Shown here: piece by piece, positions 969 to 20,330 of the stretch
Layout: each line of letters begins with the position of its first letter
How positions within the stretch are numbered: position 1 is the first letter of the stretch
Source: a virus
IMG/VR virus record: IMGVR_UViG_3300028654_000014
Location: 1-64,000 of that record
DNA length: 64,000 bases
Strand: one strand, 5' to 3'
Notes under the pieces: model-generated
What the model saw: only the letters and a program-made list of their open reading frames with translations
Told to the model about the DNA's origin: nothing
The model's database searches: none
Made by a program: the position numbers and the translations under genes

Positions 969-981
969 TTAATAATCAAGT

Positions 982-1223: not shown

Positions 1224-1241
1224 ATTAAAGTGAGGTATTAA

Positions 1242-3807: not shown

Positions 3808-3979
3808 CATTCGCACAAAAACAAGAACTTAAATTAATAATCCAAAGACTATCCAAAATGGATTATAATAGGAATAGAATCAAACAAATATTAGTTAGCA
3901 AGAATTTATATTTTAATTTTACAAGTCCAATGATATTTGTAAAGAAGAATTTAGGATATAAGGTTTTGGAATATGTTGA

Positions 3980-4351: not shown

Positions 4352-4575
4352 CCTGTAATTGTAAAGCAAATCATATTTATCATGATGGATCTTATGTTTG
4401 TTCGGGATGCGGGAGAAATAAAACCCTTGAACATTTAAATCAATTAGGATATGATTTTAATACAGATTTAAAAGATTATGTAAATAAGGATGGATGTTTG
4501 ATTCATAAATGGAAATCTTATGAAGGTTTCAAAGAAAAATATAACTATTGTGAAGTTTGTGGACAAAAAGAATAA
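4348..4575 (+). CDS. small Cys-rich (Zn-ribbon) protein
   Basis: CxC, CSGCG, HKWKSYEG...YCEVCG. Confidence 0.65.
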   Translation: MTCNCKANHIYHDGSYVCSGCGRNKTLEHLNQLGYDFNTDLKDYVNKDGCLIHKWKSYEGFKEKYNYCEVCGQKE

Positions 4576-4732
4576 ATTATATTATGATATATTTTTTACT
4601 AAAGAAATCCCACAGTTTTGGGTTGTCACAAAAGATAATATATTAATTGATATGAGTTCTAAATTCTCTCTTAGAGATACAAAATTAAATAACAAATTAA
4701 ATGATCCATTAATATTAGAATACGAGGATTAG
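4559..4732 (+). CDS. tagged micro-ORF (ends LILEYED)
   Basis: In ORF-track 4520..4732; GTG 4559 start preferred; contains NKLYY. Confidence 0.65.
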   Translation: MDKKNKLYYDIFFTKEIPQFWVVTKDNILIDMSSKFSLRDTKLNNKLNDPLILEYED

Positions 4733-4734
4733 AA

Positions 4735-6375: not shown

Positions 6376-6589
6376 TGCTTTAATATGTATTCATGATAAT
6401 GAATCCGAACCATCTTTTATAACCAAAAAATCATTAGATGATTATCCTATAGATTCTTGGAAAGAAAAGTTATTGGTAACTTTTATGAAAACTTTTTATC
6501 CCTTTTCACTTAAATTACTAATAAAAGTTGTAAATATAATTGATAAAGATATTACAGCTAAATCTACTATAATTTTAAGGTACGAATGA
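6365..6589 (+). CDS. tagged small ORF (ends IILRYE)
   Basis: ORF-track 6341..6589; GTG 6365 after AAAGGA. Confidence 0.65.
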   Translation: MDRNALICIHDNESEPSFITKKSLDDYPIDSWKEKLLVTFMKTFYPFSLKLLIKVVNIIDKDITAKSTIILRYE

Positions 6590-6795
6590 AAATCGGTGAT
6601 AAAGTTAAACTCTCAGATATTTGCCGCAAAAGATTCCATTTATTAGATGGAAATTTAGCCTTTACAAATTGCACTTTATTTTTTGATAAAGAATACGAAA
6701 TATCTGAAGTTCTTCCAAATGGTTATAAACTCAAAGGTATGAATTTAAAATATCCCTTATGGGAAGAATTAATTACCAGTTCCATTTCCAAATAA
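6586..6795 (+). CDS. hypothetical protein (KIGDKVK, KOW/SH3-like start)
   Basis: ORF track. Confidence 0.6.
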   Translation: MKIGDKVKLSDICRKRFHLLDGNLAFTNCTLFFDKEYEISEVLPNGYKLKGMNLKYPLWEELITSSISK

Positions 6796-7105
6796 CATTG
6801 TATTGCTGAGAAGAATTTGTCAAATCAAATGATAAATTATCACAAAATGGTTTTAAAGGAGCAGAGAGTTTAATCTCTTGTTTTTTATAAGCATCAAAAG
6901 CCCCGCCAATAATTGCCCCGCCAACAATAAATCTTCTATCAATTGTATTATAAAAGTCTTTTTCTTCAATCTTTTGAACTTCATCAACTTCCTTTTTAGT
7001 TCCAGATTGAGCATAGGAAGCTTTTAAAGAGCTTTTACAAGCATCTCCATTGAAATTAAAGTTCAATTGCATATAAACACACATTTGGGCAAATAATTCT
7101 TCCAT
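6773..7105 (-). CDS. lone reverse-strand hypothetical protein ending YNVIWKWNW
   Basis: ORF-track 6773..7141; ATG 7105 lies just downstream of a minus-strand TATAAT. Confidence 0.65.
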   Translation of the reverse strand: MEELFAQMCVYMQLNFNFNGDACKSSLKASYAQSGTKKEVDEVQKIEEKDFYNTIDRRFIVGGAIIGGAFDAYKKQEIKLSAPLKPFCDNLSFDLTNSSQQYNVIWKWNW

Positions 7106-7112
7106 TATCAAT

Positions 7113-7148
7113 ATTATACTTGTAATAGATAAAAAATTCAAGTATAAT
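7113..7148. promoter_or_regulatory. symmetric bidirectional sigma70 promoter
   Basis: 10-bp inverted repeat ATTATACTTG / CAAGTATAAT; + strand TTGTAA-17-TATAAT, - strand TTGAAT-17-TATAAT. Confidence 0.7.
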
Positions 7149-7296
7149 CTTTAAATGAAGTTTAAAATCATTAAATCTCAAAATAGATCAATAATATCAT
7201 ATGGATACATAAAATCTATTAAATTCTTATGGATTAATATTTTTACATTGACTTTTATGATAGATTTAAAGTAATATAGAGGAAAGGAGTTAAAAA

Positions 7297-7497
7297 ATGA
7301 ATGATATAAAGAATCTATTATCAGAGGAAGAAATTGATAAGTTAATAAATGAATTGGACTTTGAAGAAAGTCAAACCCAATTTGATTTTGATGATATTAG
7401 GGATCATAATGAAACATTGTGTGATCATCAATTTATAAATTATACAGGATTAAATGAACAATATCAATTCTGTACAGTTTGCGGGGAAAAAAGGTGA
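7297..7497 (+). CDS. small protein with C-terminal Zn-ribbon
   Basis: AAGGAG SD; CDHQFINYTG...FCTVCG. Confidence 0.7.
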   Translation: MNDIKNLLSEEEIDKLINELDFEESQTQFDFDDIRDHNETLCDHQFINYTGLNEQYQFCTVCGEKR

Positions 7498-7673
7498 CAA
7501 CATTATTTATTTCATCTCATAAAGAACATTCAATAAGATGGAGAATCTTTAAAGAAGGAGATTATAATTTATATATGTTTCTAGATGATGGAAAATTAAA
7601 CGTATCTCAATTCAATGTAAATGATATTGGTGTAACACCTAATACTTTAAGGTATATTCTTAAATATGAATAA
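7494..7673 (+). CDS. tagged micro-ORF (ends YILKYE)
   Basis: GTGA overlap with previous stop. Confidence 0.7.
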   Translation: MTTLFISSHKEHSIRWRIFKEGDYNLYMFLDDGKLNVSQFNVNDIGVTPNTLRYILKYE

Positions 7674-7836
7674 ATTCATTTACAATCAATTTTCAGATTT
7701 TACTTATGAATTAGAAAGAGATGAAAAACTTTATATACTTCTTTCTGATAAAAATTTTCATGAATTTAATTATACAGATTTAAGTAAACAATCTACATGG
7801 TATAAGGAAAGAAAGATAGTAATGGTTTATGAATAA
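7666..7836 (+). CDS. tagged micro-ORF MNKFIY...IVMVYE
   Basis: Hand-translated; TATGAATAA junctions at both ends. Confidence 0.75.
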   Translation: MNKFIYNQFSDFTYELERDEKLYILLSDKNFHEFNYTDLSKQSTWYKERKIVMVYE

Positions 7837-7996
7837 ATTTTATTACACGATTCATCCAAAAGGAGATAGTAGTTGGTTAATTTATAGAATTTTGATTAAT
7901 AATAAATTATATTTTCATGATATTGATGACGAACTTCGTAAATCACATTTTGAATTAGATGATTCTAGATTAAAGGAAATACTTCAATATGAATAA
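7829..7996 (+). CDS. tagged micro-ORF MNKFYY...EILQYE
   Basis: Hand-translated. Confidence 0.75.
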   Translation: MNKFYYTIHPKGDSSWLIYRILINNKLYFHDIDDELRKSHFELDDSRLKEILQYE

Positions 7997-8168
7997 ATTA
8001 GGATATTATAATAAATATTCAGATAAAAGTTCTTTATTTATTGTAAAAGGTGAAATTAATATGTTGTATATTGAAGGTTCTCAATTTGATTCCCCGCATA
8101 TAATTAAGAATTATGATCTATGGCATCCAGAAATGAATTATAGCATATGGATATGTGAATATGAATAA
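7989..8168 (+). CDS. tagged micro-ORF MNKLGYY...WICEYE
   Basis: Hand-translated. Confidence 0.75.
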   Translation: MNKLGYYNKYSDKSSLFIVKGEINMLYIEGSQFDSPHIIKNYDLWHPEMNYSIWICEYE

Positions 8169-9153
8169 ACTTTCATTTTCCTCAGTAAATCTTTATAATC
8201 AATGTAGTTATTGTTATTATTTAAAATATATTGAAAAGATTTATCCAAAAAGAATTAAATCATCATTATTATTTGGTACAGCAATTGATAAAGCTTTAAA
8301 TCATTTATTGCTCGAAAAGAATTTAGAAGCAGCAAAACAAGTCTTTATAGATAATTGGACAACAGGTAAAATTAATTACAAACCAGTACAATTAGAAGGA
8401 AGTGATTTAATAATCTATTCAAAATCTGATTTAGATTTAGAATTCTTAAAACATTCTACAAAAACTAAACCAAAAGATTTAAACTGGTCAAGTTTGTATT
8501 TTAAAGGTTTATTATTTATAAAAGCTTATTATGAAAAAGTCCTTCCGCGAATCAAAAATGTAATTAGTATTCAAGAATCAATTTCCATTAAAAATCACGA
8601 AGGTGATCAAATTGCTGGAAATATGGATATTATAGTTGAATGGGAAGATGGAAAAAGATATTTGTTAGATAATAAAACAACCACTTATAAATATGAAGCA
8701 AAAGATGCCCAAGAAAGTCCACAATTAAACCTTTATGATTATATTATTCATGATAAATATAAATTAGATGGTATAGGATTTATTGTTTTAAATAAGAAGA
8801 TTAATAAGAATAAGGTGAAAAAATGTAAAAGTTGCGAGGCAATAAATAATAGTAGTCATAAAACTTGTAATCAAGAATTACCTATTATTGGACCACTTAA
8901 AAGATGTAATGGTGAATTTGAAATAACAATCAATCCTTCAGTAGATATTGATTTCATATTTGATAAAATAGATCCAAACATTCAAAACAAAGTGATTGAA
9001 AATTTTGATGAAACTAATAATAAAATAGCTAATAAAGAGTTTAATATGGAACATAATCCAATAAGAGGTAAATATGGATTTTGCGATTATAAAGAATATT
9101 ATGAAGGGAATGAAGAATTTATTAGGATGGCGAAAAAAGAATCAAAGGATTGA
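8161..9153 (+). CDS. PD-(D/E)XK (RecB/Cas4-like) exonuclease
   Basis: LSFSSVNLYNQC, FGTAID, E...GNMD...LLDNKTT, QLNLY motifs. Confidence 0.8.
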   Translation: MNKLSFSSVNLYNQCSYCYYLKYIEKIYPKRIKSSLLFGTAIDKALNHLLLEKNLEAAKQVFIDNWTTGKINYKPVQLEGSDLIIYSKSDLDLEFLKHSTKTKPKDLNWSSLYFKGLLFIKAYYEKVLPRIKNVISIQESISIKNHEGDQIAGNMDIIVEWEDGKRYLLDNKTTTYKYEAKDAQESPQLNLYDYIIHDKYKLDGIGFIVLNKKINKNKVKKCKSCEAINNSSHKTCNQELPIIGPLKRCNGEFEITINPSVDIDFIFDKIDPNIQNKVIENFDETNNKIANKEFNMEHNPIRGKYGFCDYKEYYEGNEEFIRMAKKESKD

Positions 9154-9245
9154 TGAAATATTCAATAAACCCATGCCTTTAGGAACTGGAGACTATTATA
9201 GAGGTTATAAGGATTGTTTTGAACAATTAAAACAACAGATTTATA

Positions 9246-9274
9246 TTGACAATAGGGAAGAATAATGGTATTGT
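9246..9274 (+). promoter_or_regulatory. sigma70-type promoter
   Basis: TTGACA-17-TATTGT with extended -10 TG. Confidence 0.55.
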
Positions 9275-9377
9275 ATATATACAGAGATTTAACTTTCAGT
9301 GTAGAATGGACTATAACACCTACTCCAATCCAAAGGGAATTCATAAAAAGTGATTACTTAACAAAAAGGATTATAAT

Positions 9378-10064
9378 TTGCGAATATTGTTAATGATTTT
9401 AATAAGTTTGAATTTACAGGCAAAAACTCTCAGAGTATTAGAAATTGATACTGGAATTTCACTTTCCCATCAAGAAATTACAGATCATATTGATTTTAGT
9501 AACTTTAATAGAGCAGATTATATAGATGATCATCCAATTTCCCACGGAACTCATATAGCAGGTTTAATAGTTAAAGATACATGTAAACAAGTAGAATTGA
9601 TAAGCTGTAAATACTTCTTTCAAAATACATCACAAGATGTTATAAGAAATGAGATTAATTGTTTTAAAAGAGCTTTAACTTTAAATATTGATGTTATAAA
9701 CTATTCATCTTATGGATATTCTTATGTTAAAGAAGAATATGAACTTTTAAAGCAATTGAGGGATAAAAATATAATAATTATTACATCTGCCGGAAATGAA
9801 GGAAATGATATTTCATTAAAAAGAAACAGAAGATACTTATCAGGATATGATTTATCAAATATTATAGTAGTTGGGAATTTAGAAGCTAATGGAATAAAGA
9901 ATCCTACTAGTAATTATGGATTTCCAGGGATGAAATGGGAGTTGGGAACTGATATTTATTCAACATTAGCCAATGGAAAATTTGGATATTTAACTGGAAG
10001 TTCACAAGCAACTGCAATTCACACAAACAAATGGTTAAAGAAAAAATGTCTAGAGCTAAATTAG
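9378..10064 (+). CDS. subtilisin-like (S8) serine protease with signal peptide
   Basis: IDTG, HGTHIAG, SAGN, GSSQATA catalytic motifs; hydrophobic N-terminus; TTG start. Confidence 0.85.
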   Translation: MRILLMILISLNLQAKTLRVLEIDTGISLSHQEITDHIDFSNFNRADYIDDHPISHGTHIAGLIVKDTCKQVELISCKYFFQNTSQDVIRNEINCFKRALTLNIDVINYSSYGYSYVKEEYELLKQLRDKNIIIITSAGNEGNDISLKRNRRYLSGYDLSNIIVVGNLEANGIKNPTSNYGFPGMKWELGTDIYSTLANGKFGYLTGSSQATAIHTNKWLKKKCLELN

Positions 10065-10216
10065 TAGCAGATCAAGGATTTAAATACATAGGTATCCAAA
10101 GATTTTGGTTATTTAAAGATAATATTGTATATAATTTAAATGAAAAAGTTATAGCTAAACATTTAAGTCAACCAGTAATGAATCAAGATGAAATATTAGT
10201 ACTTGAATATGAATGA
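10046..10216 (+). CDS. tagged micro-ORF (ends LVLEYE)
   Basis: ORF-track 10031..10216. Confidence 0.7.
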   Translation: MSRAKLVADQGFKYIGIQRFWLFKDNIVYNLNEKVIAKHLSQPVMNQDEILVLEYE

Positions 10217-10358
10217 ACTATTTTATAAAGATGATATGTTTATAAAATCAAATGAAGAAGAAATATGTTTTTATGGTTATAAATATACAATGATAGGAAA
10301 TTCATATCTTAATTCACATATAATTCAATCTGGAACTTTCATATTAACTTATGATTGA
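10209..10358 (+). CDS. tagged micro-ORF MNELFYKDD...FILTYD
   Basis: Hand-translated. Confidence 0.75.
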   Translation: MNELFYKDDMFIKSNEEEICFYGYKYTMIGNSYLNSHIIQSGTFILTYD

Positions 10359-10470
10359 ACTATATTGTAGAGATGATATATTTTTTATTCATGTTGGTAA
10401 TGAATTTAAACAATTTGATTTTGATCAACATTTAGATGGAATACATTCACTTATATTAACTTATGAATAG
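10351..10470 (+). CDS. tagged micro-ORF MIELYCRDD...LILTYE
   Basis: Hand-translated. Confidence 0.75.
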   Translation: MIELYCRDDIFFIHVGNEFKQFDFDQHLDGIHSLILTYE

Positions 10471-10591
10471 AATACTAACAATTGTAATATTTGAAAGTGG
10501 CGAAAAAATCTTTTGGTTTGGAAAATATTCAGTATATAAACAAGTTCCAGTGGCAGATGGAAAAGAAATAATAATTTTGAGGTATGAATGA
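10463..10591 (+). CDS. tagged micro-ORF MNRILTIV...IILRYE
   Basis: Hand-translated. Confidence 0.75.
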   Translation: MNRILTIVIFESGEKIFWFGKYSVYKQVPVADGKEIIILRYE

Positions 10592-11073
10592 AATTTTTAA
10601 AATTAACTAACGTTTCAATAGATTATAATTATCAAGTGCATCTTACAAATGGAAGTTCACAGATAACAAATCAAGGATTATTAGCAGGAGGAATTAATTC
10701 AGCATTTGGTGGAATTTATTCAGGGCCAGGCACTCAACAATATCAAAATGCACAACAATCTCAACAAGGATCAAATTATAACCAACAGCAACAACTCGGT
10801 ATCAACCAATCTATTTATAATCAATTACACCAATCACCAATGCAATCTTATATTAAAAAATCAGTAATGATTCCAATAGATAACATAAATTACTTCATAG
10901 AAGAGAAAATGAATGGTAATAATACAATAATACACTTTAAAACTCCATTTCCAAATGGTGATCAATTTCTTGGACCAACATATACCTTACATGTTGAAGA
11001 AACTATTGATATGATTGAGAAACAAATACATACCCAACAATTCAACAATAAAATGGATGAGTTATTAAAATAA
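10588..11073 (+). CDS. FlbD-like small domain with Q/G-rich insert and FxxKMD C-terminal tag
   Basis: MKFLKLT...IPIDNINYFIEE...TIIHF...VEETIDMI; ends QQFNNKMDELLK. Confidence 0.55.
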   Translation: MKFLKLTNVSIDYNYQVHLTNGSSQITNQGLLAGGINSAFGGIYSGPGTQQYQNAQQSQQGSNYNQQQQLGINQSIYNQLHQSPMQSYIKKSVMIPIDNINYFIEEKMNGNNTIIHFKTPFPNGDQFLGPTYTLHVEETIDMIEKQIHTQQFNNKMDELLK

Positions 11074-11076
11074 ACA

Positions 11077-11105
11077 TTGACAATGAAGATAATTAATAGT
11101 ATAAT
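11077..11105 (+). promoter_or_regulatory. consensus sigma70 promoter
   Basis: TTGACA-17-TATAAT. Confidence 0.8.
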
Positions 11106-11136
11106 ACAATATATAAGTAATTTAAGGAGCAAATTA

Positions 11137-11421
11137 ATGGCTAAGATGAAAAAACATGTAGATGAAGAGAAAGCAGTTGAAATGGAACAAGAAGTAGTTC
11201 AAAAAGAACAACCAGAAGCTCCTGTAGAAATATTGGATAGTTTTGCATTGGGAGTTGCAAAAGACAATGAATCAGGTCGATGGTTTGTTATTAAAATTCC
11301 TTTTAATATTAAAACAGGTCAAACAGGATCTCCTATAAAATTAGGTGAAGGAGATGATAGAAGTATTTGTCTCGAAAGATTTAGAATTGAAGCAGCTAAT
11401 ACTTTAATGGGAGAAGTTTAA
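11137..11421 (+). CDS. hypothetical protein
   Basis: AAGGAG SD before ATG 11137; the longer TTG start coincides with the -35 box. Confidence 0.7.
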   Translation: MAKMKKHVDEEKAVEMEQEVVQKEQPEAPVEILDSFALGVAKDNESGRWFVIKIPFNIKTGQTGSPIKLGEGDDRSICLERFRIEAANTLMGEV

Positions 11422-11597
11422 AATGAAACTATTTTTACCATCAATTTTATCACTATTAACTTCTGGAGCAATTGGATATTTTCTATGCGATTTAGCTTTA
11501 AAAGTTGATAAAAGAGAAACAACAATCATTGTATTACTAATAGTAATGAATATGATTTTAAAAAGTATTATATTTTCAAATGTAAAAGGAGATTCAA

Positions 11598-12125
11598 ATG
11601 TCGCAAAATAGTTTAATTGTAACAAGTGCAGAAAATGCTGAACTTTTTCAAGCGTTAGCAGCTGCGAAAAGAATAATTCAACCTGTTGTAAAGAAAGGTG
11701 AAAATCCTCATTTTAAATCAGCATTTGCAACTTTAGCAGATACTTTAGATGCAGTAGAAGGTCCACTTTTGGATCAAGGAATTCTACTAATACAACCAAA
11801 TTGTACAGATGGAGTTTCAAATTTTGTAACTACAAGACTTATTCATTTAAAAACTGGACAATTTATTGAAAGTTCTGTAAAATTGGAACTTGCTAAAACA
11901 AATATGCAAGAGATAGGAAGCGCAACAACTTATGCCAAGCGTCAAACTATTACATCACTCTTAGGTCTAAGAACAATAGATGATGATGCTGAAGCTTCAA
12001 TGAATCGTTCATCTTCAAATGGTAAAACCAATGTTACAAGAGGATCTTTTAAAAAAGAAGCTGATCGTAGTTCTGTAGCAGAGAAACAGATTAATGCAGC
12101 AGCAAGTGATGATTGGGATAATTAA
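11598..12125 (+). CDS. ERF-family single-strand annealing protein
   Basis: KGENPHFKS.FA.L.D, GSATTYAKR, DDDA motifs. Confidence 0.85.
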   Translation: MSQNSLIVTSAENAELFQALAAAKRIIQPVVKKGENPHFKSAFATLADTLDAVEGPLLDQGILLIQPNCTDGVSNFVTTRLIHLKTGQFIESSVKLELAKTNMQEIGSATTYAKRQTITSLLGLRTIDDDAEASMNRSSSNGKTNVTRGSFKKEADRSSVAEKQINAAASDDWDN

Positions 12126-12276
12126 TGATAGTAATTCTAATATCAATACTAATCATATCATTACCAATGATTATAATTAATCAATTAGAACCAGTTCCAG
12201 TAAAAGAAGATAAAGTAGCTAAAGATAATTGTAAAAATTGTAAATGCGATAAATGACCAAACCGTTGATTATTTAT

Positions 12277-12305
12277 TTGACAGTTTCAATATTATTTGGT
12301 ATAAT
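12277..12305 (+). promoter_or_regulatory. consensus sigma70 promoter
   Basis: TTGACA-17-TATAAT with extended -10 TG; lies inside a small membrane ORF. Confidence 0.7.
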
Positions 12306-12364
12306 ATCTTTAATAGGTTTGAATTATTTAAGAAAGATTGTTAAATTATTAGAAAGGAAAGATA

Positions 12365-13951
12365 ATGAAAAATAAATTACTAATTGGATCATTAGTATTA
12401 TTTGTAATTGCAACTGTTTTAGGAATTGTTTCAACAGCAGGTATTGATAATCAAAGAGAATTACTTAGAAGTTTCCATTTAGGAAGTACTTCTTTATTTC
12501 TAGGATTATTAGGAGTTGGAACATTAGTTATTGCAAAATTATGGAATGAAGATACTCAAATTTCAACATCTGATAAAAAGAAAATTGCAAAATGAAAAGA
12601 GTCGATAGAATTCAATTAAACACTTTAAGTAAACTTTTATTTGGTACTTCATCAAAATGGCAAAAATTGATGAAAGGTCAAACAAAAACAATGAAAGAAA
12701 CTTTAGAAGATGGATCTGAACGAAAGTTTCAAGGAACTCATTATTCTTCTCTTGAAGAGATCAAAAAACAAATGGATGATCTTTTCAAAGAGAAAGTTTT
12801 AAAGGAAGAGAAACAAAAAGAAGAAGCTAATAAAGTTACTGTTACAAGTGAAAATAAAGCAGTAGGAACAAGATTTGAAGAAGTAGTGAAAGAGGAAGAA
12901 AATGACGAATTTATCAGAACAAATTGAACCAGCACTTCCAACAGGTGAAGAAGTTGAAAAAGAACTTTTAAGACGAGAACAAGAAAATCCTCATATATTA
13001 GATAATCATGCAACATTTTTTGCATTGTATATTCCAAAACTCATGCAAATGTTAGATGGTATGAATAAAAAAGCTCTTTTAAGAGTCATTGAATTAGCAG
13101 TAAAACATCCAATTGAAGAAAGTGATAAAAAACTTCTAAGTGTATCAGAAAATAACGCTTTTAATACTTTAAATCAATTAATGACTTCAAAATATTCCAT
13201 GATTATTTATACAGGAATGGAAGAAATGGAACGTCAAGAAGCAGAAAAAGCAAAAGAAGTTAATATAGAATCAGTGATAGAAACAAGTTTTAACGGAGAT
13301 GAAAATGAGTCAAAATCTTAAAGCAATAGATGATACAGGATTGATTAGTAATTTAAATACATTAACAACAGGATCAGTACTTTTATCAAATAGTGTAAAT
13401 GGTGGAACTGGTGGTAATGGAATTAATTCTATAACCGGAGGTTTAGATTTAAATACTAATACGGGCAGTGGAATTGCAACAAATTCATGGTATGTTCCAA
13501 CAACTACATTAGCTTATAGTTATTGGTATCCAACATTACCAGTCCCAACAGTTTCAATTGATAAAGTTGAAAATGGATTTATAATTACAAAAGATAATAA
13601 AAGATTTGTAGCTAAAAAAGCTGAAGAAATTCTTAAATATTTAAAAGGAGAAGAAAAATGAGTGAAGTAAAAGCAAAAACTGTAAGATTGGGGACAATTC
13701 TTCAAACAGATGCAGAAAAAGGTCCCTTTATGATTTTGGGCAATAATAAAAACAAAGACCCAAAATATGATTATACAGTTCAAATTAGAGTTTTGCAAGG
13801 AAGTCCAAAAACTCCAGAAGAATTTAAAAAGGCTACAGTTTTGTATAGTGGAACTAATCCATTGGTTTATATGAATAAGCCACGAGGAGAAAATGTTCCA
13901 AAAATTGTAAAACATGAATTGGCTGTGCCTTTAAAATTAGTAGAAGATTAA
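12365..13951 (+). other. run of five coupled hypothetical genes (12365..12595, 12592..12927, 12902..13321, 13299..13661, 13658..13951)
   Basis: ORF track, overlapping start/stop codons. Confidence 0.65.
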
Positions 13952-13952
13952 T

Positions 13953-14228
13953 TTATATACGTAGTAAAACTACTTATAAAGTCCATTGAAAAGTGGAAGT
14001 TGTTTCTGAAAAGAACATAAACGTTAGCGAATGAAATAACTAACGTTAGGGTCTGTGAGTGCAAATCTCACATAAATCAGGAATGGGTAAATCGTTCGAG
14101 TCGATGGTCCTGATGTATATAATTTATCCCAGTAATTATTCAGTCACATGGAGTAATTACAAATACCTTATTCCTCCCCTCTAAGGTATTTCCTTTCAAA
14201 GTTGTGAACAAGCCGGAGGTAATCCGGC
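13953..14228 (+). ncRNA. candidate structured RNA (multi-branch, GAAA tetraloops, T-loop-like hairpins)
   Basis: Closing helix TTATATAC 13953-13960 / GTATATAA 14115-14122 encloses six stems; three more hairpins to 14228. Confidence 0.55.
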
Positions 14229-14250
14229 ATTAAACTAAGGGAGTGATTGA

Positions 14251-16170
14251 ATGATGTCTCAAAAATATGTTAGATTAACAAAACATTTTCAAGATAAGGG
14301 AATTTTAGTAAAACAAGAAGAAGTTTCCAGTCAAATTAAAGATAAGAACAAAGAACACTATCAAAGTACCTATTATTACAATGAAGAACATTTTAAAGAG
14401 TTTCAAAAAGTTGGTTCGATAAAAGGAATCAAAGATGTTACTACTAATCAAATTTGGTGGGATTTTGATTCTTCAGATTTAAAATTAGCCCGAAAAGATA
14501 CAATTGAACTTGTAAAGCGTTTAAATGATTATAAAATTACATCTGATCAATTAGAAATTTATTTCTCAGGAAATAAAGGATTTCATGTAATTATTAATGT
14601 TGATAAAGAAATCAATAGAAAACAAGTTGAAAACTTCTCAAGACGAGTGGCGAAAGATTTAAAAACATTTGATACAAGTCTTTATGATGAATCACAAGTT
14701 TTAAGAATTCCTGGCACAAAGCATCATAAAACTGAATACTTTAAAACTTCATTAACTCATGATGAATTATTAAATCTTAAAACCGCTGCCCTTTTAGAAA
14801 AAGCCAAAATTCCCCAACAAATAAAATCCTCACAAAAACTAACCCTCCCTGAAAAACTATTTGAAGTTGAAGAAGTAAAAGTTCAACCAGTTACTACAAC
14901 ATTTGACATAAGCGCAAAACCAAAAGGATGGAAGGGTTCAAAATTTGCCCTATTACAAGGATTCTATGGAGCGGGTGAAAGAAGTCAAGCAATGATGATA
15001 ATAGCTTCGACTTGTAGGGCTTTAGGATATGATGAATCCACAACTTACCATATGTGTCTAAGTTCTTTAGAAAAATCATGGGAAAAGAATGGAAAAGGTT
15101 CATTTGATGAAAATGAATTACAAACCAATATTATTAATCAAGTATTTGGAGAACATTGGAATGGAGGACAATATTCGGAAAAAAATGATATGTTCCTTCA
15201 GAAAAAGGCCGATGAGTTGGGAATCAGAGAAATAGCACCAACTTCAACCGTTAATATAAAGGGAGCTTTAAAACTCTTTAAAGGATACGCAAAAAATATT
15301 GATGAATTAACATTAAAAACTGGAATTCAAGAATTAGATGCAAAACAAAGAATAACAGTTGGTATGTCATGGGGAATAATTGCAGCCCCAGGAGTTGGAA
15401 AAACATCTTGTGCATTACAAATGTTACACGCAATGTCAAAAGCTGGGGAATTATGCGTTTATCTTTCATATGATATGTTTGCCCCACACGTTGTTCAAAA
15501 GATCATTCAAAAGCACTGGAAAGGTAATAATATTGAAGAAGTCTTTGAAAAATACAAAGCAGGAGATGAAAAATTTACAAAGGAAGTAGAAGAATTAATT
15601 GAAGTTGAATATCCTAATGTTGAATTTTGTTTTGAAAGTGGCCAATCAATTGATGATATAAAACAAACAATCAGAGATGCTGAACAAAAATGCGGTAAGA
15701 AATGTAAATTTGTAGTAGTAGATTATAATGAATTAGTTATTACAGATGTTTCAGATCCAACACAAAGTTCTAATAAAGTTGCTCAACAAATTAGAGCTTT
15801 GGCATCAAATGAACAAATTTGTATTCTATCACTATTTCAACCTAATAAACTCACCGGAGATCCTTCAGTTGAAATTAAATCATACCGAGCAGCAAAAGGT
15901 GGTTCAGGAATTGAACAATCTGTAAGTTTAATGCTTGGAATGTCCAGACCTGGATTTGACCCCCGCAGACCTGATGATGATAAATATGTATCATTAAATT
16001 GCGTTAAGAATCGAATGGGATCAATCTTTTATGTAGATTTATACTGGAATGGTTATGAAGGAATGGTCCGATCTTTAACAAATGTTGAGAAAGTTGAATT
16101 AAAAGAACTTAGAGCTGCAAGAGAAGCTGAAAAAAATGGAACAAAGTTAGGATTAAATGATGACTGGTGA
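14251..16170 (+). CDS. primase-helicase fusion (AEP primase-polymerase + DnaB-like SF4 helicase)
   Basis: WDFD, FSGNKGFH, RIPGT in the N-half; AAPGVGKT, VVVDY, KNRMG in the C-half. Confidence 0.85.
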   Translation: MMSQKYVRLTKHFQDKGILVKQEEVSSQIKDKNKEHYQSTYYYNEEHFKEFQKVGSIKGIKDVTTNQIWWDFDSSDLKLARKDTIELVKRLNDYKITSDQLEIYFSGNKGFHVIINVDKEINRKQVENFSRRVAKDLKTFDTSLYDESQVLRIPGTKHHKTEYFKTSLTHDELLNLKTAALLEKAKIPQQIKSSQKLTLPEKLFEVEEVKVQPVTTTFDISAKPKGWKGSKFALLQGFYGAGERSQAMMIIASTCRALGYDESTTYHMCLSSLEKSWEKNGKGSFDENELQTNIINQVFGEHWNGGQYSEKNDMFLQKKADELGIREIAPTSTVNIKGALKLFKGYAKNIDELTLKTGIQELDAKQRITVGMSWGIIAAPGVGKTSCALQMLHAMSKAGELCVYLSYDMFAPHVVQKIIQKHWKGNNIEEVFEKYKAGDEKFTKEVEELIEVEYPNVEFCFESGQSIDDIKQTIRDAEQKCGKKCKFVVVDYNELVITDVSDPTQSSNKVAQQIRALASNEQICILSLFQPNKLTGDPSVEIKSYRAAKGGSGIEQSVSLMLGMSRPGFDPRRPDDDKYVSLNCVKNRMGSIFYVDLYWNGYEGMVRSLTNVEKVELKELRAAREAEKNGTKLGLNDDW

Positions 16171-16483
16171 TAAAAATGAGAAAGATTTTGATACATTCTT
16201 TTTAGCTTTTAGTGGTCAACAAGTTACAATAACCACTTCTATAAATGCTAATATAAGCGTCCAAGATAATCATAGTCAAACGATTAATAACTTACCCTTG
16301 TATTATGAAGGTGTTTTAATGGATTATGATAATGAATATTATTATTTAGGTGATGGAAAAGAAGTTAATCAAGCTGTTAGAAAATCTTTAACCGCTCATA
16401 TTGTAGTTAGTCAACCGTCAACAATCTTCGATGATTTATTAAATAAAATACCATTCCCTAATAAAGAGGAAGATATTAATTGA
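16157..16483 (+). CDS. hypothetical protein
   Basis: ORF track; followed by hypothetical 16480..16773. Confidence 0.65.
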   Translation: MMTGDKNEKDFDTFFLAFSGQQVTITTSINANISVQDNHSQTINNLPLYYEGVLMDYDNEYYYLGDGKEVNQAVRKSLTAHIVVSQPSTIFDDLLNKIPFPNKEEDIN

Positions 16484-16769
16484 TGAATAAAGACATTAAC
16501 AATCTTTTAACACTTTTAGAAGTGACAATGATTAATGAAGAAAAGTCTGAATATTTGGAAGTTTCTTATCAAAATGGATTTGTTTATATTTTAAGTTCAA
16601 AAGAAGATTATAAGAATTATACAATAACTGAAAGGATAAAAGGGATATTTGAATTGTTAAAGTTTGAACATAATGACATTCTTTTACAGCATCCAGTAAT
16701 CGTCGAATGTTTTGATTCTTCAGAATTAGATGGGTTATTTTTAATGTATTCTAAAAAGGAATATATAAA

Positions 16770-17357
16770 ATGAGCAGACCAATTATAATATATAAAACAA
16801 AAATATGTAATATTTGTAAAAAGAGGAAGAATGTTGATAAATTTTACTCCAAATATAAATATGGAAAATATAAACATCAAAAAAGTTCACATTGTAGAAA
16901 ATGCGAAAAGTTTAGATTAACGGAAAAAGATAAAATATGGCTAAAAGAATATAGAAAAAAATATTATCCAAAATATTACAAAGAAAATATAAAAGAAATT
17001 CGAAAAAATAATCGCAAATATTATCATTTAAATAAAAAAGAAATTAGTAGAAAAAATAAAGAAAAATACAATAATGACCCAGAATTTAAGATTAGAATAA
17101 AATGTGTAAAATATAAAATTACTGTTGATGAATATAAAAAAAGATTAAAAAAACAAAATAATAAATGTGCAATATGTAAATTACCATCTAATTTATTTAA
17201 TAAAGAATTATTTATTGATCATTGTCACCTAACTGGTAAGTTTAGAGGATTTTTATGTGGAAATTGTAATTTAGGTATAGGTTATTTTAAGGATCGTAAA
17301 AAATTAATGTTATCTGCTATAAAATATTTAGAGAATAATAATGCTAAAACTTATTAA
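16770..17357 (+). CDS. endonuclease VII-like HNH (homing) endonuclease
   Basis: QNNKCAIC...IDHCHLTGKFRGFLCGNCNLGIG. Confidence 0.85.
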   Translation: MSRPIIIYKTKICNICKKRKNVDKFYSKYKYGKYKHQKSSHCRKCEKFRLTEKDKIWLKEYRKKYYPKYYKENIKEIRKNNRKYYHLNKKEISRKNKEKYNNDPEFKIRIKCVKYKITVDEYKKRLKKQNNKCAICKLPSNLFNKELFIDHCHLTGKFRGFLCGNCNLGIGYFKDRKKLMLSAIKYLENNNAKTY

Positions 17358-17760
17358 AGCTTATTTTAAAAAACGAAGGGATGATAATTATTATAATGCT
17401 ATGAAAAATAGTATTATAAGAAATATAATAGATGGTACTAATATTTTCCAAATTCCAGTAGATTTTAATGATCGGCTAAATAATGAACTTTCCTTAATAA
17501 AAACATATTACTTTAAAGAAGAAGGATTTAAGAATTTAAAGATATTATTAGTATTAAAAGATAAAGAACATAAACAATTTAATATCATTGACTTTTATTA
17601 CGGAAAAGAATATAATAAAGATTATATATTGATTTATAAAAGGAAATATAGTAGTAAAATATTTAATACTATACAAATACCAAAGACTTATTTAATTAGT
17701 AAAAAACAGCTGTTACAAATTGATTTTGATAGAAAAATGGATGAAGTGATAGATGATTGA
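17341..17760 (+). CDS. hypothetical protein with FxxKMD C-terminal tag
   Basis: ends QLLQIDFDRKMDEVIDD. Confidence 0.7.
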   Translation: MLKLIKAYFKKRRDDNYYNAMKNSIIRNIIDGTNIFQIPVDFNDRLNNELSLIKTYYFKEEGFKNLKILLVLKDKEHKQFNIIDFYYGKEYNKDYILIYKRKYSSKIFNTIQIPKTYLISKKQLLQIDFDRKMDEVIDD

Positions 17761-17962
17761 AGCTTTTTATTGTAATAGAGATGTTAGTAATAAAGGAAGT
17801 AGTGTTTTTATAAAAAAAGAATTAGAAGGATATTACTTTAGTTGGCGGCCTAAAGATTATTGGGATAAAGGAACAGGAACACAATATCATGATAGTACTT
17901 ATGAATCATTAATAGATTGGTATAAAAATAATAATTTCATCAAAGTTCTTGAATATGATTGA
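17753..17962 (+). CDS. tagged micro-ORF (ends KVLEYD)
   Basis: ORF track. Confidence 0.75.
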   Translation: MIEAFYCNRDVSNKGSSVFIKKELEGYYFSWRPKDYWDKGTGTQYHDSTYESLIDWYKNNNFIKVLEYD

Positions 17963-18149
17963 ATTAAAATATTACATACAAAATGATCATAGAAAAGATT
18001 TTCCAAGAATATGGAATACGTTAATTGTAAAAGGAGAAGTAACACATAGTTGTTATAATAGAGAAGATTGTTTTATTGGTCATTCTGCTGGATCTGTAAA
18101 TAAATGGAAAGAATATGGAAAATTTATTGATATATTAACTTATGATTGA
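17955..18149 (+). CDS. tagged micro-ORF MIELKYY...DILTYD
   Basis: ORF track; ATG 17955. Confidence 0.75.
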   Translation: MIELKYYIQNDHRKDFPRIWNTLIVKGEVTHSCYNREDCFIGHSAGSVNKWKEYGKFIDILTYD

Positions 18150-18324
18150 ATTAAAATATTACACAGAAGATACAAATAAAAATTGGATATTCAGAATAAA
18201 AAATGATAGGGTTCTTAATTATATGTATATTGAAAAGGAAGAATCATATTGGCATGTATGTGGTAATAATATAGATAATCATAAAGAAAATGGGAAAATA
18301 ATTGATATATTAACTTATGAATGA
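18142..18324 (+). CDS. tagged micro-ORF MIELKYY...DILTYE
   Basis: ORF track. Confidence 0.75.
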   Translation: MIELKYYTEDTNKNWIFRIKNDRVLNYMYIEKEESYWHVCGNNIDNHKENGKIIDILTYE

Positions 18325-19804
18325 AATATTATATGGTAAACAAGAATTACAAAAAATAGTATCAATAGAACCTTCAAATAGTTCTGTTGAAATTTTCATT
18401 CAAGATAATCAAGGAAATGTTAAATCAGAATTTGTTGAAAACCGTTCATGGATTTTAAGCCATTTTCCTCTAAAAGACTTTAAAAAACTCCAAGGTAATC
18501 TTTATTATCAATATGGTAAACAATTTAGAGAAAGAAACGAATTTCAAAAAGCTCGAAGCTATTTAAAAAACTCAGACATATTTTCAATTTATGACCCAAA
18601 AGAATCTTTCATGGTTCTAAAGGGTTATACTTATTTTAAAGGATTAAAACACCAAGATGTTACAATTCTTTCATTTGACATTGAAACTACAACAAAAGAT
18701 TTAAATGATCAATCTAAACTTCTACTAATATCCAATACATTTAGAAAAAACGGCATAATTACTAAAAAGCTATTCTCCTATGATGATTATAATGATGAAG
18801 GAGAAATGATTGAAGAATGGTGCAAATGGGTTAGAAAAATGGACCCAAGCATTATAACAGGTCATTATATTTTAGTATTTGATTTGGATTATATTCAATT
18901 CATAGCTAATAAATATAATGTTGCTTTAAAATTAGGCCGAGATGGTTCTAATATGAAAGTTAACAATTATGAATCACAATTTAGAAAAGATGGTTCACAA
19001 TCTTATTCATATTACAAACATTACATTTATGGCCGAGAAATTATTGATGGATACTTTTTAGCTTTAAAATATGATATTGGTAGAAAATATGATAATTATA
19101 AGTTAAAGAATATAATCAAACAAGAAGGATTAGAAAAACAAGGAAGAGTATTTTATGATGCTTCAAAAATCAGAGAGAATTATAAGAATCCTACCGAATG
19201 GGCTAAAATAAAAGAATATTGTATAGATGATTCTGATGATTCATTAGCAATATTTGATTTAATGAGTCCAGCATTATTTTATTCGGCGCAAATGATTCCC
19301 AAACCCTTTCAATTAATATCAGAATGCGCAACAGGTTCACAAATTAATTCAATTATGATGAGAAGTTATTTACAAAATGGTCATAGTTTACCAAGAGCTT
19401 CTGATCCTTTTCCTTTTAAAGGTGCAATATCAATAGGAAATTTTGGAATCTATAGAAATGTATTTAAAGTAGACGTTTCAAGTCTATATCCTTCAATAAT
19501 GATCCAATATGAAGTTTACGATAAAGATAAAGATCCTAATGGAAATTTCTTATATTTGGTAAAAAATCTAACGGAACAAAGACTTATAAATAAAAAATTA
19601 GCAAAAGAAACTGGAGATAATTATTATAAAGGATTAGAACAGAGCCAGAAAATTTTAGTGAATTCTGCTTACGGATTTTTAGCTGCGGCAGGTTTGATAT
19701 TTAATTCTCCTATTAAAGCTGATTTTATTACAGAAACTGGAAGAGATATATTAAAAAAATCTATTTTATGGGCAACAGGAAAAGAATATGACGAAAACAG
19801 TTGA
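18317..19804 (+). CDS. family B DNA polymerase, N-terminal part (3'-5' exonuclease, motifs A and B)
   Basis: SFDIET, FD, YCIDD, DVSSLYPS, KILVNSAYG; lacks the DTDS motif. Confidence 0.9.
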   Translation: MNEILYGKQELQKIVSIEPSNSSVEIFIQDNQGNVKSEFVENRSWILSHFPLKDFKKLQGNLYYQYGKQFRERNEFQKARSYLKNSDIFSIYDPKESFMVLKGYTYFKGLKHQDVTILSFDIETTTKDLNDQSKLLLISNTFRKNGIITKKLFSYDDYNDEGEMIEEWCKWVRKMDPSIITGHYILVFDLDYIQFIANKYNVALKLGRDGSNMKVNNYESQFRKDGSQSYSYYKHYIYGREIIDGYFLALKYDIGRKYDNYKLKNIIKQEGLEKQGRVFYDASKIRENYKNPTEWAKIKEYCIDDSDDSLAIFDLMSPALFYSAQMIPKPFQLISECATGSQINSIMMRSYLQNGHSLPRASDPFPFKGAISIGNFGIYRNVFKVDVSSLYPSIMIQYEVYDKDKDPNGNFLYLVKNLTEQRLINKKLAKETGDNYYKGLEQSQKILVNSAYGFLAAAGLIFNSPIKADFITETGRDILKKSILWATGKEYDENS

Positions 19805-20330
19805 TTTAATTGGTAAAAGATTTGGAAGATGGTTAGTTTTAGAAATTTCAAACATGGGAAAAAATCCTAGAGTAAAAGTAATATGTGATTGTGGTACAGA
19901 AAAAATTATATTAAGTAAAACTTTAGTAGCTAAAAAAGCTAAAAGTACATCATGTGGATGTTATCAAAGAGAAAGAGTAAAAGAATGTTTAGGAAAACCA
20001 AATGATGTATCAGCTTTAAATCAATATTATTCAATTTATAAAACTTCAGCAAAACAAAGAAATCATAATTTTAATCTTACTAAATATGAATTCAAACAAT
20101 TTATTTTTGAAAAATGTTATTATTGTGAAAAAAATCCAGAACCTAGACTTATACATTCTAGAGGATTACTTTTAAATGTAAATGGAATAGATAGAGTTGA
20201 TAATTCTAAAGGTTATTCTATTGAAAATTGTGTAACTTGTTGTAAAGATTGTAATAATAAAAAATCAGATATAACTAAAAATATTATAATAAAAGCTTAT
20301 AATTTTCTAATGGGGGATAATAATGCATAA
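19788..20330 (+). CDS. HNH-type homing endonuclease inserted between the polymerase halves
   Basis: GKRFGRW.V...CDCG...SCGC; CYYC...NGIDRVDNSKGYSIENCVTCC..CN. Confidence 0.85.
   Translation: MTKTVDLIGKRFGRWLVLEISNMGKNPRVKVICDCGTEKIILSKTLVAKKAKSTSCGCYQRERVKECLGKPNDVSALNQYYSIYKTSAKQRNHNFNLTKYEFKQFIFEKCYYCEKNPEPRLIHSRGLLLNVNGIDRVDNSKGYSIENCVTCCKDCNNKKSDITKNIIIKAYNFLMGDNNA

What the first reader, a model, noticed from the sequence alone, without database searches (positions are those of the whole stretch)
13953..14122. Candidate novel structured RNA upstream of the primase-helicase
Seen: TTATATAC/GTATATAA closes a junction of six stems: GTAG-TAAAA-CTAC, TCCATT-GAAA-AGTGGA, TGTTTCT-GAAA-AGAACA, AACGTTAG/CTAACGTT, TGTGAG-TGCAAAT-CTCACA, and ATCAGGA/TCCTGAT with nested ATCG-TTCGAGT-CGAT. 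Two GNRA tetraloops, a G-U pair and two 7-nt T-loop-like loops favour function as + strand RNA. It is not a complete tRNA cloverleaf. Inference: a phage ncRNA, tRNA mimic or cis-regulatory leader.
Basis: partly seen in the sequence, partly recalled or inferred. Interest (0 to 1): 0.75.

Follow-up and report, generated by a model that had tools for sequence, protein, structure and literature searches.

The report
Orphan hairpin-rich RNA before phage primase-helicase
A 170-base stretch packed with small hairpins, some resembling pieces of tRNA, really does sit in front of this soil phage's replication gene, but it occurs in no related phage and no RNA database, so what it does is still a guess.

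Summary

- **Stability:** the fold beats shuffles (z -4.65) and is the fourth most stable of about 966 genome windows. The reverse strand folds as well (z -4.79), and the closing helix has only about 0.47 pair probability.
- **Strand:** loops favour + strand RNA. There are two GAAA tetraloops and two T-loop-like heptaloops; elsewhere in the first 40 kb, 0 of 1091 heptaloop hairpins match the T-loop pattern. The best database look-alikes of one hairpin are T arms of phage tRNAs.
- **Identity:** it is not a tRNA, and it matches no Rfam family.
- **Conservation:** it has no counterpart in 14 related phage records whose gene order is otherwise the same, so covariation cannot be tested. Four other metagenomes carry identical sequence.
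- **What the clade does share:** a C/U-rich anti-Shine-Dalgarno run, then a GC hairpin, then the ribosome-binding site. This lies downstream (14161-14243), outside the finding. This scan noted that shared element before in another 82-kb phage (e1-5892695).

Best reading, at 0.4 confidence: a lineage-specific, transcribed intercistronic RNA structure acting in cis. It is moderately interesting and unproven.

The parts
13558..13585 (+). Sigma-70-like promoter match (TTGATA-16-TATAAT, 11 of 12) inside the preceding ORF; a possible source of the transcript that runs through the element
   Evidence: It is a consensus match only, and such matches occur at chance frequency in this AT-rich genome.
13658..13951 (+). 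97-aa ORF directly upstream; a small protein family kept in this position in 11 relatives; function unknown
   Evidence: No Pfam or PHROG hit. AlphaFold2 model with pLDDT 79 has no fold match.
13953..14122 (+). Domain 1, the finding itself: six small hairpins bracketed by an 8-bp AT-rich inverted repeat; specific to this phage lineage
   Evidence: Absent from relatives.
13982..14015 (+). hp2 and hp3, both capped by a GAAA tetraloop within a shared TGAAAAG heptamer; hp2 has a G-U pair
14020..14047 (+). hp4: 8-bp stem AACGTTAG/CTAACGTT with a 12-nt loop. The 3' arm is part of the 10-bp palindrome CTAACGTTAG, so AACGTTAG is also a direct repeat 22 nt apart.
14054..14072 (+). hp5: T-arm look-alike (GTGAG-TGCAAAT-CTCAC)
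   Evidence: The exact 19-mer is the T arm of an Rfam tRNA hit in an unrelated IMG/VR phage. 28 of 29 aligned bases match the variable and T-arm part of the tRNA-Ser of Vibrio phage VPT02.
14076..14114 (+). hp6: a 7-bp acceptor-like stem enclosing a 4-bp hairpin with the canonical T-loop sequence TTCGAGT
   Evidence: No tRNA-model hit.
14132..14160 (+). hp7: 10-bp hairpin with one G-U pair on the + strand
14161..14191 (+). hp8: 10-bp hairpin whose loop carries TTCCTCCCCTCT (14171-14182), a pyrimidine run resembling the anti-Shine-Dalgarno sequence. It is the only such run in the first 40 kb of the + strand, and it is the piece shared with related phages.
14212..14228 (+). hp9: GC hairpin GCCGGA-GGTAA-TCCGGC at the position where relatives carry a terminator hairpin with a U run. 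Here there is no U run.
14237..14243 (+). Shine-Dalgarno sequence AAGGGAG of the primase-helicase gene, 7 nt before the ATG
14251..16170 (+). AEP primase fused to a DnaB-type helicase, 639 aa

Best explanation
Domain 1 (13953-14122) is a lineage-specific stretch of + strand RNA structure. It sits inside a transcribed intercistronic region, between the 97-aa gene and the primase-helicase gene.

It is a string of independently folding hairpins: two capped by GAAA, two T-arm-like, and one inside an acceptor-like stem. Part of it probably derives from tRNA-type sequence.

It was added upstream of the regulatory module this phage clade shares: a C/U-rich anti-Shine-Dalgarno run, a GC hairpin, and the ribosome-binding site.

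The most likely role is in cis on the polycistronic mRNA. It could be a processing or stability element, for example a substrate for host RNase P, RNase Z or RNase III, or a block to exonucleases. In that way it would uncouple or tune primase-helicase expression relative to the upstream genes.

Shown: the hairpins, their statistical excess, the + strand loop motifs, the absence from relatives, and the shared downstream module. Inferred: transcription, any processing, and the function.
For: - **Real and unusual structure:** z -4.65; 4th of about 966 genome windows and top in the early 40 kb. The IGR has 36% GC, in the top 1.6% of windows of that arm.
- **Loop motifs on the + strand only:** two GAAA tetraloops against a background of 10 in 1078, and two T-loop-like heptaloops against 0 in 1091. 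Both G-U pairs are on +.
- **T-arm likeness of hp5:** supported by where its database matches fall. The exact 19-mer is the T arm of an Rfam tRNA hit. The best phage-database hit is a tRNA-Ser variable and T arm, 28 of 29 aligned bases, E 0.1.
- **Likely transcribed:** all genes of the first 40 kb are on +. No + strand intrinsic terminator is detected in 1-20000. Strong promoter-like sites lie upstream at 12277 and 13558 and none inside the IGR. The primase-helicase would therefore be reached by read-through across the element.
- **Same slot in relatives:** they hold regulatory RNA signals there (CU run, terminator hairpin, SD) at variable lengths of 17-314 nt. The slot is a known site of RNA-level control, and domain 1 is an extra piece in it.
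Against: - No homologue exists, so there is no covariation and no proof of selection on the structure.
- The reverse strand folds as significantly.
- The stems are nearly perfect, which also fits young DNA palindromes or a recent insertion.
- The loop patterns were defined after seeing the sequence.
- The tRNA look-alike hits are not significant on their own (E 0.1 to 1; one exact 19-mer where about 0.5 is expected by chance by my rough estimate).
- No promoter, terminator or processing site is demonstrated.
- The closest relatives do without the element, so it is dispensable for the clade's replication module.
Confidence: 0.4

Rival explanations
1. Non-functional remnant or selfish insertion. 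Fragments of one or two tRNA genes, or another small inserted sequence, landed in a tolerant intergenic slot and are carried along, transcribed or not, without a role.
For: - The element is present in only one lineage. The closest relatives (57-65% protein identity) have 87-237-nt IGRs without it.
- Two hairpins look like T arms and one like an acceptor stem, but no intact tRNA is present.
- tRNA genes do occur sporadically in the early arm of this clade: two in G007, on the same strand, 4-7 kb upstream of its primase-helicase.
- It is flanked by a 12-nt near-palindromic repeat that also reads as an 8-nt direct repeat, TAATTTAT.
Against: - The genome is tightly packed, with only about a dozen gaps of 80 nt or more without an ORF, so 170 idle bases are unexpected.
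- A decaying pseudogene should show broken stems, yet all the stems are intact. hp1-hp4 have no tRNA counterpart.
- There is no second copy in the genome, in 14 relatives or in IMG/VR.
- The inverted repeat is far shorter than MITE termini.
- The direct repeat is the same observation as the near-palindromic inverted repeat, not independent evidence.
Confidence: 0.2
2. A discrete, processed, trans-acting ncRNA. A stable small RNA is cut from the operon transcript and uses T-loop and acceptor-like modules to engage host tRNA enzymes, tRNA-targeting defences, or tRNAs themselves.
For: - The T-loop-like loops, the acceptor-like 7-bp stem and the GAAA caps are typical building blocks of compact ncRNAs.
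- The terminal helix could define a discrete molecule.
- Published reviews point out that paired T-loops recognise the tRNA elbow and suggest looking for them in viral transcriptomes (PMC4919913).
Against: - The element has no promoter or terminator of its own.
- It gives no Rfam hit, including the tRNA, tmRNA and Y-RNA-like models.
- The genome has no Ro60/TROVE or RtcB gene.
- The terminal helix is weak (probability 0.47).
- It is not conserved in relatives, whereas useful ncRNAs usually spread within a clade.
Confidence: 0.15
3. A DNA-level element. It is either a replication origin or primase-helicase loading site beside the initiator gene, or a set of palindromic operator sites. The inverted repeats would act as double-stranded binding sites or as extruded single-strand hairpins.
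For: - It lies directly upstream of the primase-helicase gene.
- Both strands fold equally well.
- hp4 and hp7 are pairs of palindromic cores (AACGTT, TAATTA) spaced 22 and 21 bp apart, that is two helical turns.
- Origins of mobile elements commonly sit next to their helicase gene (PMC7581432).
- Origin regions of Ceduovirus phages are non-coding, transcribed, and differ in sequence between otherwise similar phages (PMC7150918).
Against: - There is no iteron array: no word recurs three times in direct orientation.
- The region is GC-richer than the genome rather than an AT-rich unwinding element.
- Cumulative GC skew shows no turn near 14 kb.
- The six palindromes share no common sequence, so six different binding proteins would be needed.
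- DNA-level function does not explain the GAAA and T-loop-like loops or the + strand G-U pairs.
- Relatives with the same primase-helicase lack the element.
Confidence: 0.15
4. A chance cluster of AT-rich hairpins with no meaning.
For: - Short perfect hairpins are common in this 27%-GC genome, at 17.6 per kb for stems of 5 bp or more.
- By raw hairpin count the window is not the genome's top.
Against: - 0 of 200 dinucleotide shuffles fold as well.
- After GC correction it ranks in the top 0.4% of genome windows.
- The loop motifs are far above background.
Confidence: 0.03

Closest known systems
tRNA T arm plus acceptor stem, and tRNA-like domains built from them (tmRNA tRNA-like domain; bacterial YrlA/Y RNAs, PMC4201824)
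   Same: hp6 has a 7-bp stem enclosing a hairpin with the loop TTCGAGT. hp5 differs by one base from T arms of phage tRNAs. An 8-nt G-rich internal loop sits where a D-loop mimic would be.
   Different: There is no cloverleaf, no anticodon arm and no CCA. The inner stem has 4 bp rather than 5, and a 2-nt bulge precedes the acceptor strand. No hit to the tRNA, tmRNA or YrlA models. The genome has no Ro60 gene.
C/U-rich anti-Shine-Dalgarno motifs in Staphylococcus aureus: icaR 3'UTR-5'UTR pairing (PMC3868564) and the UCCC loops of Rsa sRNAs (PMC2790875)
   Same: The neighbouring hairpin hp8 shows a CCUCC-type run in its loop, next to a G-rich SD. The same run-hairpin-SD order recurs in seven lineages of the clade.
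   Different: This concerns 14161-14243, not the finding's 13953-14122. Pairing and regulation are untested here.
Intercistronic RNase III processing hairpins of phage T7 early mRNA, and RNase P cleavage of tRNA-like phage RNAs such as the P1/P7 C4 precursor
   Same: Structured RNA between cistrons of a phage operon that the host RNases could recognise. This is the mechanism I consider most likely.
   Different: The T7 sites are single irregular hairpins of about 60 nt, conserved in T7-like phages. Here there is a 170-nt array of six short perfect hairpins found in one lineage, and no cleavage has been shown.
Non-coding origin transcript PE1-T of Lactococcus Ceduovirus (c2-type) phages (PMC7150918 and references in it)
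   Same: A non-coding, structured, transcribed region tied to replication that differs in sequence between otherwise similar phages.
   Different: The c2 origin is bracketed by two mapped promoters between divergent gene blocks and was shown to drive plasmid replication. Here there is no promoter pair, no functional test, and the element lies inside a co-directional operon.
Iteron origins beside helicase genes of SaPI and SCCmec elements (PMC7581432)
   Same: A non-coding region with inverted repeats adjacent to a primase/helicase gene.
   Different: Those origins depend on short direct repeats, and their inverted repeats were dispensable for helicase binding. This element has no iteron array.

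Membership tests
tRNA (Rfam RF00005 / ARAGORN) | Four-arm cloverleaf scoring at or above the family threshold (29 bits) | tested here: not met
   ARAGORN finds 0 genes in the window. cmscan gives no tRNA hit at E<=10 on 1401 nt or on 321 nt. Only at ARAGORN's 80% threshold does a poor Leu(CAG) model appear, with a mismatched anticodon stem.
tRNA (Rfam RF00005 / ARAGORN) | T arm: a 5-bp stem with a 7-nt loop of the type UUCRANY | tested here: inconclusive
   hp6 inner loop is TTCGAGT on a 4-bp stem. hp5 is GTGAG-TGCAAAT-CTCAC, with G in place of the near-universal U55. It is identical to the T arm of an Rfam tRNA hit in L023 (30.9 bits) and one base away from the T arm of VPT02 tRNA-Ser. These are look-alikes; descent is not proven.
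Any curated RNA family (Rfam 15, 4227 models) | Match at the gathering score, or at least a suggestive E-value | tested here: not met
   The best hits in the IGR are twister-P3 (15.3 bits against a threshold of 39.9) and Acido-1 (14.8 against 50), both in domain 2 and both noise.
Y RNA-like (YrlA) tRNA mimics | Match to the family model, and a Ro60/TROVE gene (often with RtcB) in the same genome | tested here: not met
   No Rfam hit. There is no PF05731 or PF01139 match in the 82-kb genome, and the control genomes did score.
Conserved structured RNA (any new family) | Homologues that keep the pairs through compensatory changes | not testable with these tools
   No homologue was found in 14 related phage records, 2 MAG contigs or 3 metagenome loci. 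Four other metagenome runs carry 100% identical sequence.
Iteron-type replication origin | Three or more direct repeats (iterons) for the initiator | tested here: not met
   The only repeated word of 7 nt or more in direct orientation is AACGTTAG, twice (with a third copy inverted). GTAATTA occurs twice direct and once inverted.
Iteron-type replication origin | An AT-rich unwinding region | tested here: not met
   The element has 34% GC and the IGR 36%, against a mean of 27% for the early arm (first 40 kb). The IGR is in the top 1.6% of windows there.
Iteron-type replication origin | Supports replication and is bound by the initiator | not testable with these tools
   This needs a plasmid replication assay and EMSA.
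MITE or other small mobile insertion | Multiple copies in the genome or in related genomes | tested here: not met
   It is single-copy in the genome and absent from relatives. Exact sub-motifs are absent from IMG/VR apart from one 19-mer inside a tRNA-like gene. There is no match in the plasmid collection; the only weak match in the phage collection within the element is to the variable and T arm of a phage tRNA-Ser.
MITE or other small mobile insertion | Terminal inverted repeats of 10 bp or more, plus a target-site duplication | tested here: inconclusive
   A 12-nt inverted repeat with one mismatch is present. The 8-nt direct repeat TAATTTAT follows automatically from that near-palindrome, and this word occurs 50 times in the genome. 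No empty site is available for comparison.
Intrinsic terminator | A GC-rich hairpin followed by a U run | tested here: not met
   The scan finds 0 terminator-like sites in 13000-15000. hp9 is GC-rich but is followed by ATTAAAC.
   It is met by 14171-14182, 14212-14228 and 14237-14243, which lie outside the finding's coordinates. This is the only such run in the first 40 kb of the + strand, and such runs are about 10-fold enriched in relatives' IGRs. Domain 1 itself is not part of this module.

The most novel reading that the evidence does not exclude
Domain 1 is a discrete, stable phage ncRNA of a new class. Its two neighbouring T-loop hairpins and acceptor-like helix would let it pose as a tRNA fragment, acting as substrate or decoy for RNase P, CCA-adding or modifying enzymes or for tRNA-targeting defence nucleases. 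Alternatively they would let it grip the tRNA elbow, as the paired T-loops of RNase P and T-box RNAs do.
Probability: 0.1. Interest if true: 0.7.

Novelty: new member of a known kind. Interest (0 to 1): 0.3.

Why it matters
If the element is functional, it would show how a phage can bolt a tRNA-flavoured RNA module onto the control region of its replication gene. It would also add an uncatalogued RNA structure from an uncultured soil phage clade that has no cultured relatives.

More solidly, the work shows that the gap before the primase-helicase gene in this clade is a hot spot of RNA-level signals. A shared C/U-rich anti-Shine-Dalgarno run sits beside lineage-specific inserts. That is a testable model for how early and replication gene expression are separated.

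As it stands, the element is a single-genome orphan without expression or conservation data, so its value is as a lead rather than a result.

Tried and rejected
The roughly 270 protein homologues of the primase-helicase, including a second contig of the window's own protein cluster, could not be turned into DNA. This is the main reason no covariation test was possible.
- **Sequencing runs:** no RNA holder was listed. Contigs of four rhizosphere DNA runs were laid on 13600-14600. Every piece that mapped was identical, and gaps in cover reflect fragmentary contigs.
- **Similarity searches:**
  - blastn of 1 kb around the element against 50,697 phage records found nothing.
  - Searches of the IGR alone gave only E 0.1-10 hits.
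  - The plasmid collection gave nothing.
- **Exact-pattern scans of IMG/VR:**
  - hp4 gave 0 hits.
  - hp6 gave 0 hits.
  - hp5 gave 1 hit.
- **Covariance model:** a single-sequence model of domain 1 matched only itself in 15 phage records and 4 further loci.
- **Relatives' IGRs:** I tested whether they are also unusually structured. Only those with plain terminators are (L010, L011, L014). The long ones (L007, L015, L019) are not, so a structured domain in this slot is not a clade-wide rule.
- **attP idea** (a tRNA 3' part carried at a phage integration site): no tyrosine or serine recombinase is found in the genome.
- **Retron-like or Y-RNA-like ideas:** there is no TROVE or RtcB gene. I did not search for a reverse-transcriptase gene.
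- **Coding alternative:** the 41-aa GTG ORF at 14059-14184 has no SD. It lacks the C-terminal tag that other first-reader notes report for this genome's micro-ORFs (which I did not check), so I treated it as a mechanical ORF.
- **Own tRNA candidate:** a low-threshold ARAGORN tRNA-Leu at 76599-76680 was not confirmed by Rfam.
- **Upstream 97-aa protein:** it was folded to look for an RNA- or DNA-binding fold. Foldseek gave nothing at E<=0.001, and VIA-align gave a best Z of 3.4.
- **Shared promoter motif:** a word search across this genome's IGRs found only scattered 9-10-mers.
- **Host-family search:** the covariance model could not be run against a possible host family, because virus records and MAG loci have no relatives handle.

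Full report
**Where it is.** The window is the first 64 kb of an 82,221-nt IMG/VR virus record. The record has about 27% GC and recurs in rhizosphere metagenomes. All genes of the first 40 kb are on the + strand. The finding (13953-14122) lies in a 299-nt ORF-free gap, 13952-14250. On one side is a 97-aa ORF (13658-13951). On the other is a 639-aa ORF (14251-16170) that is an archaeo-eukaryotic-type primase fused to a DnaB-type helicase (Pfam DnaB_C 5.9e-16 plus weak AEP hits; PHROGs primase and DnaB-like helicase). The genome is tightly packed, and this is one of only about a dozen gaps of 80 nt or more. No cultured phage is close; tblastn finds only 25-31% identity over the primase part.

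**The observation.** RNAfold returns the same architecture as its minimum-energy structure: -43.5 kcal/mol, z -4.65, and 0 of 200 shuffles fold as well. Against the genome itself, and corrected for GC, the element is the 4th most stable of about 966 170-nt windows and the most stable of the early arm.

There are three cautions:
- The reverse complement is as far from its shuffles (z -4.79).
- In a 600-nt context the closing helix has a pair probability of only about 0.47, while the individual hairpins are at 0.8-1.0. A row of independent hairpins is better supported than a rigid six-way junction.
- The 8-bp terminal match is rare (0.4% of windows), but its boundaries were picked after the fact. 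The flanking 8-nt direct repeat TAATTTAT is the same observation as the 12-nt near-palindromic inverted repeat, not separate evidence.

The structured region also does not stop at 14122. Three more hairpins follow, at 14132-14160, 14161-14191 and 14212-14228.

**Strand and molecule.** Energy cannot choose a strand, but the loops can. In the first 40 kb of the + strand outside this gap, GAAA closes 10 of 1078 possible tetraloop hairpins. None of 1091 possible heptaloop hairpins has a loop of the form U[UG]CRANY. The element has two GAAA loops 22 nt apart and two such heptaloops 41 nt apart. On the reverse strand these loops would be UUUC, AUUUGCA and ACUCGAA, none of which is a known stable motif. 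Both non-Watson-Crick pairs in the IGR stems are G-U on the + strand (hp2 and hp7). I defined the loop patterns after reading the sequence, so these figures overstate the significance, but the direction is clear: + strand RNA.

**The tRNA flavour.**
- An exact-match scan of IMG/VR with the 19-nt hp5 gave a single hit. That hit lies in the T arm of an Rfam tRNA match in an unrelated phage (30.9 bits, E 3e-4), which ARAGORN does not call.
- The best blastn match of the hp4-hp5 segment in 2.3 Gb of phage genomes is the variable-arm and T-arm part of the tRNA-Ser of T5-like Vibrio phages. It matches 28 of 29 aligned bases with one 3-nt gap, at E 0.1.
- The inner loop of hp6 is the textbook T-loop sequence, and it sits inside a 7-bp stem, like an acceptor stem.

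Neither database hit is significant on its own. That both fall on tRNA T arms is unlikely to be chance.

The element is nevertheless not a tRNA:
- ARAGORN calls none.
- The Rfam tRNA model is silent even at E<=10 on 321 nt.
- The only relaxed ARAGORN model is poor.
- hp6 gives no tRNA hits by blastn.
- The phage has no tRNA of its own, although one relative has two in its early arm.

**Relatives.** I collected loci around primase-helicase homologues at 32-65% identity: 14 distinct IMG/VR records, 3 metagenome contigs and 2 MAG contigs. Gene order is kept (small ORF, gap, primase-helicase), but the gap ranges from 17 to 314 nt and shows no sequence similarity to domain 1. A covariance model of domain 1 finds only itself in 15 whole phage records and the other loci. 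Only relatives with plain terminators have significantly stable gaps. Four other metagenome runs carry the phage with zero differences.

**What the clade does conserve.** I tested this here.
- In the window's first 40 kb the only + strand run of 10 or more pyrimidines with 5 or more C is TTCCTCCCCTCT at 14171-14182, in the loop of hp8.
- In the relatives such runs are about ten times more frequent in this gap than in the flanking 64 kb.
- After correcting two start codons, seven lineages show the same order: CU run, GC hairpin (usually with a U run), G-rich Shine-Dalgarno, start.
- The window has this module at 14161-14243, with a GC hairpin that lacks the U run.

Domain 1 is thus an extra 170 nt inserted between the stop codon of the upstream gene and the shared module. 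The shared module resembles the UCCC-type anti-Shine-Dalgarno motifs of S. aureus (PMC3868564, PMC2790875).

**Transcription (inferred).** No sigma-70-like promoter and no intrinsic terminator is detected inside the gap. There is no + strand terminator anywhere in 1-20000, and strong promoter-like sites lie upstream (12/12 matches at 11077 and 12277, 11/12 at 13558). The simplest reading is that the primase-helicase is reached by read-through, so domain 1 is part of a polycistronic + strand RNA. Promoter matches occur at chance frequency in this AT-rich genome, so this step is weak.

**Explanations weighed.**
- *Preferred (0.4).* I favour a cis-acting intercistronic RNA structure: a processing or stability element built partly from tRNA-type modules. 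It fits the strand signal, the position in a slot the clade uses for RNA-level control, and the absence of its own promoter and terminator.
- *Functionless remnant or insertion (0.2).* This fits the single-lineage distribution. It fits poorly with intact stems in a packed genome.
- *Discrete trans-acting tRNA-mimic or tRNA-binding ncRNA (0.15).* This is the most interesting reading. It lacks any sign of a separate transcription unit, of known partners (no Ro60 or RtcB) or of conservation.
- *DNA-level origin or operator cluster (0.15).* The position beside the initiator gene and two pairs of palindromic cores spaced two helical turns apart suggest it. Precedents exist (PMC7581432; PMC7150918). 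Against it are the lack of iterons, the lack of an AT-rich unwinding region, no skew turn, and no explanation for the loop motifs.
- *Chance (0.03).* The shuffles and the genome-wide ranking disfavour it.

**Verdict.** Function and even expression remain untested, and the lack of any homologue keeps this a lead. Interest 0.3. I file it as a new member of a known kind, namely structured intercistronic or leader RNA in a phage operon.

Noticed in passing
window 14161-14243; L006, L007, L014, L016, L020 (true start 1501), L025 (true start 1459/1465): A clade-wide module sits before the primase-helicase gene: a CCUCC-type pyrimidine run, often in a hairpin loop, then a GC hairpin usually followed by a U run, then a G-rich Shine-Dalgarno. 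The G-rich 3' arm of the terminator could pair with either its own 5' arm or the upstream CU run, which would make an attenuator.
   Followed up: partly
L007 1342-1475 (record IMGVR_UViG_3300028146_000009): Between a clear terminator and the SD of its primase-helicase, this relative has its own roughly 125-nt stretch, closed by AGCCAG/CTGGCT and followed by a U run. It is unrelated in sequence to the window's domain 1. Its fold is not better than shuffles (z about -1).
   Followed up: partly
L023 8721-9226 (IMGVR_UViG_3300035698_019603): An unrelated, GC-richer phage has a roughly 500-nt stretch without an ORF of 50 aa or more. The stretch ends in a borderline tRNA (Rfam 30.9 bits against a threshold of 29) that ARAGORN does not call, with mismatches in its acceptor stem and an odd anticodon loop.
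   Followed up: partly
G000 74801-74970, window 63751-63920 and 59756-59925: Three 170-nt windows of the same genome fold more stably than the finding after GC correction (residual z -4.3, -3.5, -3.2). No Rfam hit in 74600-75200. I did not check whether they are coding.
   Followed up: partly
window 13658-13951 and the syntenic ORFs of 10 relatives (alignment A5): A small protein family of 77-106 aa always sits directly upstream of the gap and the primase-helicase. It has no Pfam or PHROG hit. The AlphaFold2 model is a mostly beta fold (pLDDT 79) with no convincing structural neighbour.
   Followed up: partly
G007 26663-26736 and 29416-29485 (loci L029, L030): One complete relative (89 kb, direct terminal repeats) carries two good tRNA genes (43.7 and 42.6 bits) 4-7 kb upstream of its primase-helicase, on the same strand. 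The window's phage and three other near-complete relatives have none.
   Followed up: no
window 11077-11105, 12277-12305, 13558-13585, 17588-17616: Perfect or near-perfect sigma-70 consensus promoters (12/12, 12/12, 11/12, 11/12) lie on the + strand, inside or at the ends of small early ORFs. No + strand intrinsic terminator is detected in the first 20 kb.
   Followed up: no
L024 (CAZRNW010000257.1) and L025 (PLXT01000071.1): Relatives of the primase-helicase (43% identity) sit on contigs binned into a Flavobacteriaceae MAG and a Methanobacterium MAG. These are probably phage contigs mis-binned, so they say little about the host.
   Followed up: no
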